Source of the DNA: SAR202 cluster bacterium
GTDB lineage: Bacteria > Chloroflexota > Dehalococcoidia > Lucifugimonadales > VGZY01
Direction: 5' to 3'
DNA length: 64,000 bases
Assembly (NCBI GenBank): GCA_016872355.1
Contig: VGZY01000001.1
Coordinates: forward strand, 33,803 to 97,802
The notes beneath the pieces were generated by a model, which had not been told where the DNA came from, ran no database searches, and worked only from the letters and a program-made list of their open reading frames with translations. Positions within the stretch are counted from its first letter, which is position 1. Every line of letters begins with the position of its first letter. This document shows, piece by piece, positions 7,415-53,655 of the stretch. A program made the translations under genes and the position numbers.

Positions 7415-9285
7415 TCACACGTACCACCCAGACTGTATGCGGTACATCTCCGCGTAGCGCCCGCCACGCTCCATTAGCTCCGGATGAGAGCCGTCCTCCA
7501 CGATCTTGCCGCCGTCCAGAAACACGATGCGGTCCGCTAGCCGTGCCGAGCCGAGGCGGTGGGAGATGAGCAGGACGGAGCGGCCCCGGGCGATATCGCG
7601 GAAGTGGCGGTATACCTCCACCTCCATCTTGGCGTCCAGGGCTGCGGTGGGCTCATCGAGCACGAGAACTGACGCATCTCGAATATAGGCCCGAGCAATC
7701 GCCACCTTCTGCCATTGGCCAGATGAGAGGTCCTGCCCCTTGTCGTCATAGGTCTTGCCCAGCATCGTCTCGTATTTGGCAGGAAGGGCTGATATTACCT
7801 CGTCCGCTCCGCTCTTTGACGCAGCAACGGCGATTGCGTCGGTGTCCTCGATACGGCGTAGCTCGCCGAAGCCGATGTTCTCTCGCGCGGAGGCGGCGTA
7901 TTTCACGTAGTCCTGAAATACCGGCGCTACCCGCCTCCGCCACTCAGACGGCACTATCAAGGCCAGGTCCTCGCCATCCACCGTGATGCGGCCCGATGTC
8001 GGCTTGTAGAGTCCGAGCAGCAGCTTCGCGAGTGTCGACTTCCCCGCGCCGTTCTCGCCGACGAGCGCGATGCTCTTGCCGGGCTCCAGCACCAGGTCGA
8101 TGCGGTCCAGCACGGGCTTCGTGGCACCGGGGTATATAAAGGTCACCTGCTCGAACCGTACCGCCGGGACATCCGCGGCCAATGGCAGCTTATCGTGTGC
8201 GCCATTTTCCCGATGCCGTTAGTGGCCGTAGCGGCTGCGGGGAAGGGCGTCCACTCCTCCTCGGCCTTGAGTTAGTCCAGGACGTCCTTCATGTATGAAA
8301 TCGAGCCTGTAACAGACCGGTACCCGCCAAGGGCCATGGATGCCGAGCTCATGAACTGCTGGGCCGCCGTAAGGAAAGCAGCGAATAGTCCGAGCGTGAG
8401 ACGGCCCGTCACGATAAGGACTACTGACCAGGTGATCACCAGCGCATACGTAAAATGCTCGAAGAAGGTCCTGGCCACCGCACCGCGAACCCGCTCCCTG
8501 GCAAGAGACAGCCGGTCGTTGCGCAGCTCCGCGACGAGCTTCTTTCGCCTGCCGAGCAGGAAGTCACCAAGGCCAAACAAGCGCACCTCAGCGGCCGCGG
8601 GTCTATCCGCCATCAGCTTGCCCAGGTAGTCGATATATCGAAGTGTCGGGCTGTGCTTCGACTTCAGCACCCTGATCCTTTCAAAGATGCGCTCGCCGAT
8701 TACGTGCGACGGGGTGATGCCGATCAGCAAAATGACTGGGAACCATATGTTCACGGAGCCCAGATAGATAAGAAGCCCTATGGCGGTGATTGCGTCCGAA
8801 GGTATTCGAAGCATCCACTGAATCGGCACCCACAGCCGGTCCACACCGAACTGGGCGTGGTGAAGCAGGTCGTAGTATTCGGCCTGCTCGAATGCCTCCA
8901 GCGGCAACCGGCTCGCCTTTATCATCAGGCGCTCGTTCACGCCGGCCTGGAAGATCTCCATAATGTCCGGAATCAGCCAGCGGTGGACGAATATGCCGGA
9001 CAATGCCTGCACAAGGTTGGCCGCCAGAAACGCTACGAGCCATATCGTAGCAGTGGTCAGATTCGAATCGCCCTTGAGAATGCCGACGGCGCCGTCGATG
9101 AGGCCACGAAGGAATACGGTCATTAGAATGGGCGCAAGCCCTGTGATCAGGATCATGAACGCCGCGATCAGCATTTCGCGACGGCCGATCTCCCACATGA
9201 GCTTCATGTAGCGCCAGAAGTATATGGCCTGGTCCCTGGATCTCAGGCGTTGCCTATCGCGTGACCATTGCGACTGCCTAATCAT
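7415..9285 (-). pseudogene. ABC exporter, fused permease/ATPase (MsbA/MdlB type), disrupted by an in-frame TAA plus a frameshift
   Basis: The TMD ORF 8272-9285 and NBD ORF 7415-8182 equal one half-transporter when compared with the intact 616-aa paralogue next door. TAA at 8272-8274 is followed by still-alignable LKAEEEW. The frame then changes near the T4 run 8206-8209 before LPLAADVPAVRFEQVTFIYPG. Walker A GENGAGKST, signature LSSGQWQ, Walker B VLVLDEP. Confidence 0.8.
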
Positions 9286-47906: not shown

Positions 47907-47936
47907 TTGACAACGAAGACGCCGTCTGGATATTAT
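47907..47936 (+). promoter_or_regulatory. candidate sigma-70 promoter upstream of the Fic gene
   Basis: TTGACA (47907-47912), 18-nt spacer, TATTAT (47931-47936), in an AT-rich patch. Followed by two TTACTATC direct repeats. Confidence 0.45.
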
Positions 47937-47999
47937 TGTTACTATCTTCCTGATATTATTCTTACTATCATGCTGCCCACATTCGCCGTTACGGACTCC

Positions 48000-48947
48000 A
48001 TGAAGTACTCACTTGCGGACCTGGACCGCCTCAAGTGGCTGGTCGCCAGCCAGATCTTTGCGCCGCGGCACGAAGGGTGGCTGGTCAGATCGGAGCGACA
48101 GCGTCGCGCCGCGGCGACGGCTGCGCTGGAAAATTGTCAGCACGCTGCAGCGAAGTCTGCAGACGAGGCGAATGCCCTGCGGGCATATGAGTTCATCGAC
48201 TTCGTCAGCGAAATGCCTGATGCGCAGGTCCAGGAGTTCGTGCTGCGTGAGGTGCATAGGCAGCTAACCATCGGGCGCCGTGGGTCCACGCCTGGCCATT
48301 ACCGCAAGGAGGCGGCGCGGCCGGCAGGGTACCGGCCGGCGGGGGAAGCGGACATTCCTGTGCTCGTCCGCGAACTCACAGCGTGGCTCGCTGGGGACAC
48401 GCAGACGCATACGGTGCTCAAGGCAGGCATCGCCCACATCCAGCTTCTGGCCATACACCCCTTCACCACAGGGAACGGCAGCACCACCCGGGCCGTCAGC
48501 GGCCTGTTTCTACAGAAGTCGCAATTCTCTTTTCGCAAGATGCTGAACCTGGAGCTCACTCTCGCCCATGTAAGGGACCGTTACATATCGACGGTCACGA
48601 CAACCCTTGGCGCAGAGTTTTCCAACGGATACGACGCAACGCGCTGGCTGGAGTTCTACACCGCCGCCGTAAGCATCGCTGCGCAGGACCTGGTCAACCG
48701 GCTCAACAACTGGCACAGGCTATCGCTGGACCTTGGCAAGGACGACGCGGAGATGGGGCTCCCTTCCCGGCTAGTAGATGGACACCTTTACGCGATGGGA
48801 ACGGGACAGATAACCCGCTCGGAGTACATGGACCTCACCGGGATGAGCGAGCTGGCCGCCACGCGGGACCTCGCAAAGCTGGTTGATAAAGGGCTGCTCA
48901 CGTACGAGGGGAAGACGAAGTCCAGAGTGTACCGTCCCAAGAGATAG
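48000..48947 (+). CDS. Fic-domain protein with a non-canonical active-site motif and a C-terminal wHTH
   Basis: HPFTTGNGSTTRAV at the position of HxFx(D/E)GNGRxxR. C-terminal ELAATRDLAKLVDKGLLTYEGKTKSRVY looks like a winged helix. Start uncertain (ATG 47970 or 48000). Confidence 0.75.
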   Translation: MKYSLADLDRLKWLVASQIFAPRHEGWLVRSERQRRAAATAALENCQHAAAKSADEANALRAYEFIDFVSEMPDAQVQEFVLREVHRQLTIGRRGSTPGHYRKEAARPAGYRPAGEADIPVLVRELTAWLAGDTQTHTVLKAGIAHIQLLAIHPFTTGNGSTTRAVSGLFLQKSQFSFRKMLNLELTLAHVRDRYISTVTTTLGAEFSNGYDATRWLEFYTAAVSIAAQDLVNRLNNWHRLSLDLGKDDAEMGLPSRLVDGHLYAMGTGQITRSEYMDLTGMSELAATRDLAKLVDKGLLTYEGKTKSRVYRPKR

Positions 48948-50525: not shown

Positions 50526-50567
50526 CCAAGTCAAGGACCCCGACAATTGTCGGGGTCCTTGACTTGG
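50526..50567. terminator. long perfect hairpin between rsgA and the RHH gene
   Basis: ccaagtcaaggaccccgaca / tgtcggggtccttgacttgg, a 20-bp stem with a 2-nt (at) gap between the arms. Confidence 0.75.
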
Positions 50568-50607
50568 CTATCGTGCAATCAGGCAATCTTGCATATACTG
50601 CAATCCG
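50567..50607. repeat. short array of phased 8-bp repeats downstream of the RHH gene
   Basis: ggctAT|CGTGCAAT|CAGGCAAT|CTTGCATA|tactgcAAT. Same octamer family as the large arrays upstream of parA. Confidence 0.6.
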
Positions 50608-50635
50608 GTCCGAACCGCGCCTGCAGGCTCCTGCC

Positions 50636-50920
50636 CTACCCTGCCGCCGCGCTATCGTCCGCCTTTAGCGTATCCAGCCCGTGCTTGCGCATCGCCCGCT
50701 GGATGTGCGGCATGATCGCCTGCATGCAGAAGTCCTGGGCCGTCATGTCCTCGTGCGCGGAGACGATCTTGAGCTTGTGAGCTACGTCCTCCGGCATTCG
50801 GAGGATCACCGCCTTGCGCGGACCCAGGTCGTTGGCGCGGCGCAACTTTGCTGCCGGGCCGCTCCCCCGGGTATTGATAGGTTTAATGGGCTCGAAACGT
50901 TTCCCTGGCCTAACTTCCAT
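50636..50920 (-). CDS. ribbon-helix-helix (CopG/Arc/ParG-like) DNA-binding protein with a disordered basic N-terminal tail
   Basis: RKAVILRMPEDVAHKLKIVSAHEDMTAQDFCMQAIMPHIQRAM fits beta-strand/helix/helix of the RHH fold. The tail is PAAKLRRANDLGPRK. GGAGAGGAG RBS lies inside the parA 3' end, and the start overlaps the parA stop by 11 nt. Confidence 0.7.
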   Translation of the reverse strand: MEVRPGKRFEPIKPINTRGSGPAAKLRRANDLGPRKAVILRMPEDVAHKLKIVSAHEDMTAQDFCMQAIMPHIQRAMRKHGLDTLKADDSAAAG

Positions 50921-51572
50921 GTGAGCCGTTCTCCTCTCCGAAGACGATCTTGTAGAGTTTGTCCATCTCCTCCACTGCCTTGTTGTCCGCGGGCCGGTAC
51001 TCGCTTACGACCATACCCTCCGGGACCGCGCGCTTGAAGGAGACCCTGTCGCGCACTACGAAGTCCGCGACCTTTATGTTCTCGCACTGTGAGATTGCGG
51101 TATGCGCCTGCTTTGTATCGCCGTCCTTGGGGTTCGACGAGGCCCTGTTGATGACCACCCATGCCTTGAGGCCGTCGTTGGCCACCTTTGCCTCGGCGAT
51201 GCGGTCGTCCAGCAGGCCGAGCGTCCACACGTCCAGTCCGGTGGGCTGCACGGGGATGATCGCGCGGTCGGCCACGCGCAGGGCGCCTTCGATCTCCTTG
51301 CTATCGCCCGCGCCAATATCTATGACTATGTCCTCGTAACGGCGGGACATGTCTCGGACCGCCCGTGCGAGGCCCTCACCGAACTTCTGGACGCATGTCA
51401 CCGGCTTGAGCCCCTTCCCTCCCCTGGCTTCCGCCCAGTAGCTGGCGCTGCCCTGCCTGTCCGCGTCCACCACCAGCACGTCCCTGCCGGCCACCGCCCT
51501 GAGCCCGGCCAGGTTGGTAGAGAACGTGGTCTTTCCCGTTCCGCCCTTCTCTCCAATCACTGCAACTATCAT
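50910..51572 (-). CDS. parA: ParA/Soj-family deviant Walker-A ATPase (small, plasmid type Ib-like)
   Basis: MIVAVIGEKGGTGKTTFSTNLA has the KGGxGK[ST] deviant Walker A. Also VLVVDADRQGS and IVIDIGAG. About 220 aa with no N-terminal HTH. The ATG at 51572 is preferred because the longer start lies inside the repeat array. Confidence 0.85.
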   Translation of the reverse strand: MIVAVIGEKGGTGKTTFSTNLAGLRAVAGRDVLVVDADRQGSASYWAEARGGKGLKPVTCVQKFGEGLARAVRDMSRRYEDIVIDIGAGDSKEIEGALRVADRAIIPVQPTGLDVWTLGLLDDRIAEAKVANDGLKAWVVINRASSNPKDGDTKQAHTAISQCENIKVADFVVRDRVSFKRAVPEGMVVSEYRPADNKAVEEMDKLYKIVFGEENGSHGS

Positions 51573-51590
51573 GGCTGCCCACCATTGCTG

Positions 51591-53232
51591 AGAATATCTT
51601 GCAATCAAGATTCCTATCTAGCAGTCGATCTTGATGCACAGCTATATAGATAAGGTAACGGCCTCGGCGCGGTCAATGAGATTTTTGACAACGTTTAGGC
51701 GAAATATTAAGGATCGCTTGCCTCCCAGTCATCAAGATGCGGCGCATGCAAGCTATCGAGATACGCGTGGATACTTGCCATCCAGCTATATTGGCATCAT
51801 GACGTCAGGCTATCTTCTCATCGAGATGGAGAGATCGCCGGCAGACGCTGCGGACCTGCCTCATTTCGATGGCGCAAAGTTACCAGGTCGCCAATTCGCG
51901 GAGTCATCAAGTTATCCGGGTACACCTCGTAGCTCGCTTTCTTGCTTGCTTGCTGTCTTGTCATCCTGCTACCTTGCTATCCCAGTATCGAGCCATCTCG
52001 CGATCTAGTTATTCCGCCGTCAAGATATCCGCTGCCATCGCCTGCGGATGACTCGCTGTCTTGCTGTCTGGCCATCCAGCTATCTTGCTACTTTGCAAAC
52101 AAGTCATCGTGATGGCTTCAACTGGTGATCAAGTGTGAGGCGCGACCAGGACCACGGTCCATGCCGTAGGACCTCGATAGCTCGCTAGCACGCCATCTGT
52201 ATGACTTGTTATCTGATGAGGTGTGCCGGTGACACAAAAAATACCCACCGGGCGATCTGAAGCCCTGACACTATCGACCAACAGGGACTCCGGACCGATA
52301 CTCTACATAACGCACGGCAATCTCTCCAGAATGCCCGCACAGCGAAGAAACCAGTCCAGGACAGGCATTTCATTGCCATAAGCGCCGGGCAGGCCCCATA
52401 GAGCGTTATATGGAGCGGCCATTCTGCTATCTTGATATTCAGCTATCTCCAAGTGCGCCGATGCCCTGGTTACCGAATTCCGAGTCGCTTCCGTGCGCAC
52501 GTCAGCAGCGGGTCCTCGCCGAACCGCCGACCGACCAGCTGCGGAATTGCTAGCACGCTATCTAGCTGGCTTGCGTGCAAGCTATCGTGATAGGGACCCG
52601 GCGCCACGGCGAAGGACCGGCCCAGGGCCGGCGGCTTGGACTGCTGCCTTGCTATCATGCTGTCCAGTTATCTAGCTGCCATGCTAGCGGTGCATCAGAG
52701 CATCATGCTATCGCGCTATCTTCCCGCGCCGCAGAACGGCCTGACATCTGCAGGAGCCGGAGCCTGGCGGTTTCTGATAACGGACTATCTTACTATCGTG
52801 CTATCACGCCGGATTCTCTCTCTGCTGTGGCCCTACGCTCCGACGAATGCGCCAAGGGCGGCGGACGGATCGCACGCCATCTTGCTACGCAGCTAGCTTG
52901 CCAGCCTCAACGCACTGATAGTGAGATAGCTCGCTGTCTGCTCTTCAGGTCATCAAGTCATCCCTATAGATCTGCTAGCGAGCTATCCTCTGAGCCCTGT
53001 GCCGGCCTTAAAGATAACTAGCTTGAGAGATAGTATGATTGCATGATTGCTGCGCTCCCGGTCTGTCCGTATGGCGCACAGGCCTCCCGGTAGTTTGCCA
53101 TCACCCAATCAACGCATCCGCGACTCATAGGTATCTTGCTTGCAATGCATCATGCAATAGAACCGCAGGGGCTTGTGTGATAGCGGATGCTCGTGGCTAT
53201 CGTGCGATCTTGATTGCTTGCGATCCAGGATA
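51591..53232. repeat. ~1.6 kb non-coding region made of at least 12 arrays of contiguous 8-bp repeats (consensus C-T/G-T-G-C-N-A-T)
   Basis: Hand-registered arrays include the following. 51599-51646: CTTGCAAT|CAAGATTC|CTATCTAG|CAGTCGAT|CTTGATGC|ACAGCTAT. 51941-52036: 12 units, CTTGCTTG|CTTGCTGT|CTTGTCAT|CCTGCTAC|CTTGCTAT|CCCAGTAT|CGAGCCAT|CTCGCGAT|CTAGTTAT|TCCGCCGT|CAAGATAT|CCGCTGCC. 52648-52719: 9 units, CTTGCTAT|CATGCTGT|CCAGTTAT|CTAGCTGC|CATGCTAG|CGGTGCAT|CAGAGCAT|CATGCTAT|CGCGCTAT. 52789-52804. 53135-53158. 53201-53232. An 8-nt period is incompatible with coding, and only short low-quality ORFs occur here. Confidence 0.8.
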
Positions 53233-53313
53233 GGTGCAGGCGCGCATTCGCCGGGGCGTTTTCGATACAATAGCGATGTTCTATCAAACGTCCCGTGGCA
53301 CGACAGAGGTGAG

Positions 53314-53655
53314 ATGCCCGACAAGCTGGTCACACTAGCCCGGTTCTCATACGTCGCCGAGGCCAACCTGGCAAAGAGCAGGCTGGATGCGGAGGGCATC
53401 CCCGCGTTCGTCGCTGACGAGCATATGGCGACCCTTAACTACGCGCAGGCCGTTGGCGGAATCAAGCTCATGGTCCAGGAGACGGATATGGAAGAGGCGA
53501 GTCATCTGCTTGGCCTGCCTTCCGAGGGCTCTCCTGCCCCCTCCGATACCTCCTTTGCCTCCCCACACAGGAGCCCACTCAGCCTCTACATTTGGGGACT
53601 GGTTGAGGTGATAGTCCTTGTGCTTATTATCTCCCAGTTCGTCACGCGGCCGTAG
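53314..53655 (+). CDS. DUF2007-like domain protein with a C-terminal TM segment
   Basis: LVTLARFSYVAEANLAKSRLDAEGIPAFVADEHMA...GGIKLMVQETDMEEASHLL is a DUF2007 pattern. Tail LYIWGLVEVIVLVLIISQF. GAGGTGAG RBS before the ATG at 53314. Confidence 0.65.
   Translation: MPDKLVTLARFSYVAEANLAKSRLDAEGIPAFVADEHMATLNYAQAVGGIKLMVQETDMEEASHLLGLPSEGSPAPSDTSFASPHRSPLSLYIWGLVEVIVLVLIISQFVTRP

What the first reader, a model, noticed from the sequence alone, without database searches (positions are those of the whole stretch)
50567..53232. ParA + RHH partition-like cassette flanked by ~1.7 kb of phased 8-bp repeats (giant centromere-like region in a chromosomal context)
Seen in the sequence: a small deviant-Walker-A ParA (50910-51572) is translationally coupled to a 94-aa ribbon-helix-helix protein with a basic disordered tail (50636-50920). 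Both sides of the operon carry arrays of contiguous 8-bp units with consensus C-(T/G)-T-G-C-N-A-T, which reads as GCTATCTTGC across unit boundaries. I registered at least 12 arrays by hand. One lies directly on the parA upstream region (51599-51646) and one lies 3' of the RHH gene (50575-50607). Runs of 9-12 units keep exact 8-nt phase at 51941-52036 and 52648-52719. The 1.6 kb upstream region has no credible ORF, is less GC-rich than its surroundings, and an 8-nt period excludes coding. Established knowledge: type Ib plasmid partition systems use RHH centromere-binding proteins that bind arrays of very short contiguous repeats. Omega of pSM19035 binds 7-bp heptads. As I recall, ParG of TP228 binds ACTC boxes with 4-bp spacers, which is also an 8-bp register. 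Inference: this is a ParF/ParG-like segrosome module whose repeat field (well over 50 units, in many separated blocks) is far larger than described plasmid centromeres. It sits between rsgA and ordinary chromosomal genes. It could be the centromere of a chromid or integrated plasmid, or a chromosomal positioning system.
Basis: partly seen in the sequence, partly recalled or inferred. Interest (0 to 1): 0.8.

Follow-up and report, generated by a model that had tools for sequence, protein, structure and literature searches.

The report
Plasmid-type partition cassette, oversized repeat field
A small two-gene DNA-segregation module of the kind normally found on plasmids sits in the chromosome of an uncultured SAR202 (Chloroflexota) bacterium, next to a 1.65-kb non-coding field packed with its predicted 8-bp binding sites. 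That field is several times larger than the site arrays of any relative I could examine.

Summary
Window 51573-53240 has a strong 8-nt periodicity (lag-8 identity 0.367 against 0.254 in shuffles, z=10), found nowhere else in the 64 kb. The unit is G-C-T-A-T-C-T-T. A strict caller finds 11 in-phase blocks, against 0 in the other 61 kb and 0 in 300 shuffles. Shorter arrays lie on the parA leader and just 3' of the second gene.

The genes are a 220-aa ParA, whose best solved relative is TP228 ParF, and a 94-aa protein. That protein has a disordered basic N-terminal tail and a confidently predicted ribbon-helix-helix (RHH) domain.

The main evidence is comparative. Relatives with ParA 56-75% identical carry the same octamer in short blocks directly upstream of parA and just downstream of the RHH gene. 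Several of these cassettes sit beside plasmid replication-initiator genes. More distant ParA relatives lack the motif.

This is therefore a previously unnamed family of type Ib (ParF/ParG-like) partition cassettes. Here it is lodged among housekeeping genes, and its site field is enlarged to at least 2.6 times that of the largest relative by the same caller. Both genes are under purifying selection.

What the module segregates or positions is not known.

The parts
50526..50567 (.). Perfect 21+21-nt palindrome between the convergent rsgA and RHH genes. It looks like a bidirectional terminator, and its last base abuts the first octamer.
   Evidence: I3, 100% complementary, no loop; sequence
50567..50590 (+). 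Downstream array: three in-phase octamers (GCTATCGT GCAATCAG GCAATCTT), 46 nt 3' of the RHH stop codon. Two degenerate units follow, to 50606.
   Evidence: The equivalent position holds 4 in-phase units in L013 and 4-5 units in L020 and L024.
50636..50920 (-). 94-aa predicted centromere-binding protein. Residues 1-34 form a disordered basic tail carrying the motif R-G-S-G-P-A/G-A-K-x-R-R. Residues 35-80 form the ribbon-helix-helix domain.
   Evidence: AF2 gives pLDDT 92-95 for residues 40-80, with helices 44-56 and 61-79 after an extended 36-42 segment. All top Foldseek hits are RHH proteins, with target-normalised TM-score (TMt) 0.77-0.85 and rmsd 1.3-1.8 A, but E is about 1. Pfam RHH_10 matches 32 of 45 family members, best 6e-6. 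dN/dS is 0.071 against L013.
50910..51572 (-). 220-aa ParA-type ATPase with the deviant Walker A motif GEKGGTGKTT and no N-terminal DNA-binding domain. Its stop overlaps the RHH start by 11 nt.
   Evidence: Pfam CbiA and AAA_31. Best PDB sequence hits are TP228 ParF, 4dzz and 5u1g, at E=7e-10. NCBIfam NF041546 ParA_partition scores 154 bits, below the cut-off of 180. dN/dS is 0.056.
51593..51648 (+). Octamers next to the operator, on the parA leader/promoter region (AATATCTT GCAATCAA ... TCGATCTT ... GCTATATA).
   Evidence: Relatives carry their upstream block at the same place, 7-60 nt before parA.
51573..53240 (.). The whole non-coding octamer field: 1.65 kb, GC 54.7%, mostly + strand units with some inverted ones.
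51936..52007 (+). Longest strictly phased run, 9 units.
52055..52094 (+). 5-unit block, 82% identical to 51941-51979, which suggests a segmental duplication within the field.
   Evidence: (D1)
52549..52588 (+). Block of 5 phased units that includes partly palindromic GCTAGC units, so it is called on both strands.
52643..52722 (+). 10-unit run, with one unit slipped by 1 nt.
52784..52807 (+). 3-unit block with the highest mean score (ACTATCTT ACTATCGT GCTATCAC).
53011..53050 (-). Block in inverted orientation, 5 phased units on the - strand.
53196..53227 (+). Distal 4-unit block. Its first 16 nt repeat the start of the downstream array (15 of 16 identical). It lies about 90 nt upstream of the DUF2007 gene.
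   Evidence: (D4)

Best explanation
This is a type Ib (ParF/ParG-like) DNA-partition cassette from a small, unnamed family. It was probably acquired from a plasmid and now lies in the SAR202 chromosome.

Inferred mechanism:
- Dimers of the 94-aa ribbon-helix-helix protein bind the hexamer core GCTATC at 8-bp centre-to-centre spacing, one dimer per octamer, and cooperatively coat each block.
- The block on the parA leader autoregulates the operon.
- The coated blocks together form a partition complex. Its disordered basic tails (conserved R-G-S-G-P-G-A-K/R-x-R-R, with R28 as a candidate arginine finger) stimulate the ATPase of nucleoid-bound ParA. This moves or positions the DNA that carries the sites.
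- The field has grown to at least 11 blocks over 1.65 kb by duplication and inversion of blocks.
- RHH centromere-binding proteins are not known to spread from their sites. Multiplying specific sites is therefore the obvious way to build a larger complex on a large replicon.

What is shown: the periodic motif; the gene identities and the predicted fold; co-occurrence of the motif with the cassette across loci; plasmid contexts of relatives; the chromosomal context here; purifying selection.

What is inferred: binding, autoregulation, ATPase stimulation, and any segregation role.
For: - Periodicity and block statistics.
- ParA is closest to ParF, is a small ParA without an N-terminal domain, and is related to ParAs on 1215 PLSDB plasmids.
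- RHH fold with a flexible tail.
- The PWM was trained only on the window. In L020, L021, L022, L024, L025 and L026 it finds in-phase blocks adjacent to the par operon, within about 340 nt upstream of parA (most within 25 nt) and 12 nt after the RHH stop. The one exception is a block at the 3' end of the rep gene in L020/L021. No other block occurs in these 5-12 kb loci.
- Those loci carry Rep_3 or RPA replication initiators, Tn3, resolvase and ParE.
- Among 80 metagenome ParA relatives, 12 have any block. Ten of these are relatives with ParA at least 56% identical, where the blocks lie next to the par genes. The other two (L071, L097; ParA 43-46%) each have one minimal 3-unit block more than 1.5 kb from parA, which looks like chance. 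Coverage is at most 112 bp, against 290 bp here.
- The distant clade, with a different beta-strand, lacks the motif.
- The downstream array is kept in an 83%-identical relative.
- dN/dS is 0.06-0.07 for both genes.
- Published parallels: TP228 has 20 boxes in 8-bp register, direct and inverted, which serve as both operator and centromere (PMC3130281). pB171 par2 has the order parC1-parA-parB-parC2 (PMC4270457). RHH centromere binders do not spread (PMC8682754).
Against: - There is no experimental binding or segregation data.
- The RHH protein has no detectable sequence similarity to ParG, omega or any PDB chain, and the Foldseek E-values are not significant.
- The PWM was trained on the field, so the within-window statistics are partly circular. 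The cross-locus test is not.
- Another chromosomal relative (L009) has essentially a single site, so a large field is not needed for the cassette to persist.
- No consensus sigma-70 promoter was found.
- Whether this genome also has a canonical ParABS system is unknown.
- Many relative contigs are short, so larger fields elsewhere could have been missed.
Confidence: 0.68

Rival explanations
1. The cassette is a functionally idle remnant of an integrated plasmid. It persists only as a self-repressing operon, and the extra blocks arose by neutral slippage or duplication and do no segregation work.
For: - The family is plasmid-borne elsewhere.
- Related cassettes lie at unrelated chromosomal sites.
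- rsgA neighbourhoods in the nearest relatives lack the cassette.
- Many units are degenerate.
- Block duplications and inversions are visible.
- L009 makes do with one site.
Against: - Both genes are intact, with dN/dS of 0.06-0.07 at dS of about 0.85-1.1.
- The flanking arrays are conserved in a diverged relative.
- No rep, integrase or transposase gene, and no pseudogene debris, lies nearby.
- A 1.65-kb field with 4-5 times the chance site density would be expected to decay if unselected.
Confidence: 0.17
2. The field is a decoy centromere. The chromosomal field, with its par proteins, competes with or mis-pairs with incoming plasmids that use the same par family, and destabilises them through partition incompatibility.
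For: - The same octamer and closely related ParA/RHH proteins (ParA 65-69% identical) occur on plasmid-like contigs.
- Extra centromere copies are known to exert incompatibility in classical plasmid genetics (from my own knowledge, not tested here).
Against: - There is no direct evidence.
- No plasmid of this family is known from SAR202.
- PLSDB holds no RHH relative.
- The plasmid-like contigs have different GC contents, and their hosts are unknown.
Confidence: 0.07
3. The field is something other than protein-binding sites: a replication origin with iterons, a structured or processed RNA, a decayed gene, or an assembly artefact.
For: - It is a long non-coding tract, lower in GC than its surroundings.
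- Folding z-scores reach -2.2 to -2.5 in two minus-strand 400-nt windows.
Against: - No Rfam match, even at E of 1 or less.
- No DnaA box within 1 mismatch in the field.
- No GC-skew switch.
- No rep gene nearby.
- An 8-nt period is incompatible with coding, and GC3 is low.
- No Pfam or par-gene remnants.
- Three other assemblies are 100% identical.
- The motif tracks the par cassette across loci.
Confidence: 0.05

Closest known systems
TP228 parFGH (ParF ATPase, ParG RHH protein, parH/OF centromere-operator)
   Same: - The ParA is closest to ParF among solved structures.
- The partner is a small RHH protein with a flexible N-terminal tail.
- Sites are degenerate short boxes in an 8-bp register, in direct and inverted orientation, upstream of the operon.
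- The sites serve as both operator and centromere (PMC3130281).
   Different: - The RHH protein has no detectable sequence similarity to ParG.
- The core is the hexamer GCTATC plus 2 nt, not ACTC plus a 4-nt AT spacer.
- There is also an array 3' of the operon.
- The field is about 1.65 kb, with at least 11 blocks separated by unrelated spacers, against 20 contiguous boxes (about 160 bp).
- It is in a chromosome, not a plasmid.
pB171 par2 (type Ib; parC1-parA-parB-parC2)
   Same: Centromere repeat arrays flank the parAB operon on both sides (order confirmed in PMC4270457). This layout is seen here and in L020 and L024.
   Different: From memory, not verified here, pB171 uses 6-bp repeats (about 17 + 18). 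The field here has an 8-bp unit, is far larger, and is asymmetric.
pSM19035 delta/omega and pCXC100 ParA/ParB
   Same: RHH dimers bind contiguous, unspaced short repeats cooperatively: 7-bp heptads for omega, and nine 9-bp repeats for pCXC100 (PMC3074162). Omega has several separate arrays that double as promoter operators. This resembles the third block at the rep gene in L020.
   Different: The unit length and sequence differ. Those arrays have 7-10 units each and lie on plasmids.
Archaeal SegAB (Sulfolobus chromosome)
   Same: A chromosome-encoded ParA-type ATPase is paired with an RHH site-specific binder. An unstructured N-terminus stimulates the ATPase, and the sites lie upstream of the first gene (PMC8682754).
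   Different: SegB binds two palindromic 23-bp sites, not kilobase octamer arrays. It is an archaeal lineage, with no sequence relationship shown.

Membership tests
Type Ib plasmid partition system (small ParA + RHH centromere-binding protein + short-repeat centromere) | Small Walker-type ParA (about 200-230 aa) with a deviant Walker A and no N-terminal HTH domain | tested here: met
   220 aa; GEKGGTGKTT at residues 7-16. Pfam CbiA and AAA_31 cover residues 2-187. Best PDB hit is ParF.
Type Ib plasmid partition system (small ParA + RHH centromere-binding protein + short-repeat centromere) | [quoted passage not shown] | tested here: met
   AF2 pLDDT is above 90 for residues 40-80, with strand-helix-helix topology, and the tail is below 60. 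Top fold hits are all RHH proteins. There are weak but consistent Pfam RHH hits. The genes overlap by 11 nt. This rests on prediction only.
Type Ib plasmid partition system (small ParA + RHH centromere-binding protein + short-repeat centromere) | Arrays of short (6-9 bp register) repeats next to or overlapping the operon promoter | tested here: met
Type Ib plasmid partition system (small ParA + RHH centromere-binding protein + short-repeat centromere) | Carried by, and stabilising, a low-copy plasmid | tested here: not met
   The window carries lepA, ftsH, a class II aminoacyl-tRNA synthetase, addAB-like genes, rsgA and SRP RNA, and no rep gene. Relatives L020-L026 do sit next to Rep_3 or RPA genes. 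Stabilisation cannot be tested here.
Type Ib plasmid partition system (small ParA + RHH centromere-binding protein + short-repeat centromere) | The binding protein binds the repeats and stimulates ParA ATPase | not testable with these tools
   Needs EMSA or footprinting and ATPase assays.
ParG family (Pfam ParG) / ParF equivalog (NCBIfam NF041546) | Sequence match above the curated threshold | tested here: not met
   The RHH protein has no ParG hit in Pfam, no NCBIfam hit and no PDB sequence hit. ParA scores 154 bits against a cut-off of 180 for NF041546.
Chromosomal ParABS (type Ia; HTH/CTPase ParB, 16-bp palindromic parS) | ParB with HTH and ParB/Srx domains; palindromic parS | tested here: not met
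   The partner is a 94-aa RHH protein with no ParB domain. The sites are non-palindromic octamers.

The most novel reading that the evidence does not exclude
A bacterium uses a ParF/ParG-type (RHH-based) system to position or segregate its chromosome, or one chromosomal domain. This would be a bacterial counterpart of archaeal SegAB. The kilobase-scale, multi-block field of specific sites would stand in for the spreading or sliding that HTH-ParB proteins use to build large partition complexes.
Probability: 0.2. Interest if true: 0.8.

Novelty: new variant of a known kind. Interest (0 to 1): 0.55.

Why it matters
RHH-type (type Ib) partition systems are textbook plasmid devices with centromeres of roughly 80-200 bp.

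This case is a member of an undescribed, rare family. The RHH protein has only about 120 clusters at 50% identity among 1.84 billion proteins. It sits in a chromosome, under purifying selection, with a site field about ten times longer than described type Ib centromeres.

If the field is functional, it would show how a non-spreading centromere binder can scale its partition complex to a large replicon. It would also give a bacterial example of RHH-based chromosomal positioning.

The family also provides a clean protein-motif pair. The conserved beta-strand R-K-x-V-I-I-R-M goes with GCTATC at 8-bp spacing. Natural variants range from 1 site to more than 70. That range suits a test of how array size and geometry affect segrosome function.

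Tried and rejected
- Rfam at gathering and at E of 1 or less: nothing in the region.
- Sigma-70 promoter and terminator scan: uninformative.
- Tandem Repeats Finder: picks up only fragments, because the units are degenerate.
- GC skew: no switch.
- DnaA boxes: none in the field.
- tblastn of ParA and the RHH protein against the field: no pseudogene remnants.
- Pfam on ORFs in the field: nothing.
- PDB sequence search with the RHH protein: nothing.
- PLSDB tblastn with the RHH protein: nothing.
- First metagenome scan, with the single ParA: nothing. The alignment-based scan worked.
- Search for an 'empty site' through RsgA homologues: the nearest are only 55-58% identical and not syntenic, so no insertion boundaries could be defined.
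- Whether the genome has a canonical parAB/parS could not be tested. Only the window is available.
Full report
**Observation**

The region 51573-53240 upstream of parA is strongly periodic. Lag-8 base identity is 0.367, against 0.254 in 300 dinucleotide-preserving shuffles (z=10). Harmonics appear at lags 16, 24 and 32, and a weaker signal at lag 4. A sliding scan finds a signal of this size nowhere else in the 64 kb.

An iteratively refined weight matrix gives the unit G-C-T-A-T-C-T-T. C2, A4 and C6 are nearly invariant.

The field holds 45 (+) and 28 (-) sites of at least 6 bits, against 9.0 and 7.4 in its own shuffles. A strict caller requires at least 3 contiguous in-phase units, each of at least 2 bits, with a mean of at least 5 bits. 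It finds 11 blocks (39 units), all inside 51777-53227. It finds none in the other 61 kb and none in 300 shuffles.

The longest runs are 9 units (51936-52007) and 10 units (52643-52722). Shorter arrays lie on the parA leader (51593-51648) and 46 nt 3' of the second gene (50567-50590).

The field has 54.7% GC, against 62.7% for the window. Its ORFs have GC3 of 0.52-0.66, against 0.75-0.9 for real genes, and no Pfam match. It has no Rfam match even at E of 1 or less and no DnaA boxes. It holds no remnants of parA or the RHH gene. Contigs from three other assemblies are 100% identical over the field, so it is not a repeat collapse.

**The genes**

The gene at 50910-51572 (-) encodes a 220-aa ParA with the deviant Walker A motif at residues 7-16 and no N-terminal domain. 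Its best solved relatives by sequence are TP228 ParF (4dzz, 5u1g; E=7e-10). It scores 154 bits on NCBIfam ParA_partition, below the equivalog cut-off of 180. It is related, at under 60% identity, to ParAs on 1215 PLSDB plasmids.

The gene at 50636-50920 (-) overlaps the parA stop by 11 nt and encodes 94 aa. It has no Pfam match above threshold and no NCBIfam or PDB sequence match. Family members do give weak, consistent hits to RHH families: RHH_10 in 32 of 45, plus TacA, ParD, CopG and Arc.

An AlphaFold model built on 45 homologues has pLDDT of 92-95 for residues 40-80. It shows an extended segment at 36-42, then helices 44-56 and 61-79, preceded by a low-confidence basic tail. Its best PDB fold matches are all RHH proteins (CopA_SO, Arc, CopG, AtaR, TacA). 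TM-scores normalised to the target are 0.77-0.85 and rmsd is 1.3-1.8 A. The Foldseek E-values are about 1, as expected for a 45-residue domain.

The tail carries a conserved R-G-S-G-P-G-A-K/R-x-R-R motif.

**Comparative evidence**

The organism is a SAR202 cluster bacterium. The window carries lepA, ftsH, a class II aminoacyl-tRNA synthetase, addAB-like genes, ogg, rsgA and SRP RNA, so the context is chromosomal.

The RHH family is small: about 105 clusters at 90% identity, and 120 at 50% identity out of 1.84 billion. None of its members is named.

Members with ParA 65-69% identical lie on plasmid-like contigs. They sit next to Rep_3 or RPA replication-initiator genes, Tn3, resolvase, TniB, ParE and restriction genes.

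The weight matrix was trained only on the window. In those loci it finds in-phase blocks of 3-7 units adjacent to the par operon. They lie within about 340 nt upstream of parA (most within 25 nt) and 12 nt after the RHH stop. L020/L021 have one further block at the 3' end of the rep gene. No other block occurs in these 5-12 kb loci.

Among 80 metagenome ParA relatives, 12 have any block. Ten of these have ParA at least 56% identical, and their blocks lie next to the par genes. The other two (ParA 43-46%) each have a single 3-unit block far from parA, which looks like chance. Each locus has 1-3 blocks covering at most 112 bp. The window has 11 blocks covering 290 bp.

A more distant clade (L004-L008) has a different predicted beta-strand and lacks the motif. 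So protein and motif vary together.

The relative that is 83% identical at the DNA level (L013) keeps four phased units between the RHH stop and a terminator. Another Chloroflexi copy in a chromosome-like setting (L014) has an intermediate expansion: 17 sites in 761 bp downstream, against 5.0±2.3 expected. L009 has essentially one site.

dN/dS between the window and L013 is 0.056 for parA and 0.071 for the RHH gene.

The cassette lies at unrelated sites in different genomes. It is absent next to rsgA in the nearest available RsgA relatives.

**Interpretation**

The anatomy matches type Ib partition systems:
- TP228 has 20 degenerate ACTC boxes with 4-bp spacers, so an 8-bp register. They occur in direct and inverted orientation and act as both operator and centromere. 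ParG's flexible tail modulates binding and ParF loading (PMC3130281).
- pB171 par2 has centromere arrays on both sides of parAB (PMC4270457).
- pCXC100 has nine 9-bp repeats bound successively by RHH dimers (PMC3074162).

I therefore infer the following. RHH dimers coat each octamer block. The leader block autoregulates the operon. The coated field forms a partition complex that works with nucleoid-bound ParA.

RHH centromere binders have not been seen to spread beyond their sites (PMC8682754). A large complex would then need many specific sites, which gives a rationale for an expanded field on a large replicon.

None of the binding or segregation steps is shown here. The cargo is unknown. It could be a chromosomal domain, there could be none (a relic), or the field could act as a decoy against plasmids.

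**Verdict**

The cassette is a new, unnamed member of the type Ib kind. What is unusual is its chromosomal location combined with a site field about ten times longer than described type Ib centromeres, and at least 2.6 times the largest relative by the same caller.

I rate it a new variant of a known kind, with moderate interest.

Noticed in passing
window 50565-50580 and 53194-53209: A near-identical 16-mer, TGGCTATCGTGC(A/G)ATC (15 of 16), in direct orientation, brackets the whole cassette plus field. It could mark the edges of the acquired segment, or it could simply be two similar arrays.
   Followed up: no
window 50526-50567: A perfect 42-nt palindrome (21+21, no loop) lies between the convergent rsgA and RHH genes and abuts the first octamer. 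It is probably a bidirectional terminator.
   Followed up: partly
window 53196-53227 / 53317-53655: The distal octamer block lies about 90 nt upstream of the divergent DUF2007 gene. The RHH protein might therefore also regulate that gene, as omega does for several promoters.
   Followed up: no
L020 and L021 3832-3863: In the plasmid-like relatives, a third block of four high-scoring octamers overlaps the 3' end of the Rep_3 initiator gene, 1.5 kb from the par operon.
   Followed up: partly
L009 8243-8520: Two copies of an unrelated repeat of about 75 nt (CCCTTGAGGGAGAGGATTGAGGTGAGGGGGAAAGCTCTCT...) lie just downstream of the RHH gene. Their nature is unknown.
   Followed up: no
L004-L008 (Dehalococcoidia MAGs; L007 on a 3.67-Mb chromosome): A sister clade pairs ParA with a 91-94-aa RHH-like protein that has a different beta-strand (Y-P-L-S-L-K-I-S). 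The regions upstream of parA are AT-rich and lack the GCTATC octamer. L005 lies next to a transposase.
   Followed up: partly
L005 7348-9264: A 638-aa ORF has long Pro/Thr-rich tandem repeats, which give lag-6 and lag-12 signals at 8386-8866.
   Followed up: no
RHH family alignment (A1, A2): The N-terminal tails share R-G-S-G-P-G-A-K/R-x-R-R. G19, G21 and R28 are nearly invariant even in the distant clade, which makes this a candidate ParA-activating motif.
   Followed up: partly
window 47907-48947: A Fic/DOC-domain protein with a DIP2311-like C-terminal domain lies immediately upstream of rsgA.
   Followed up: no
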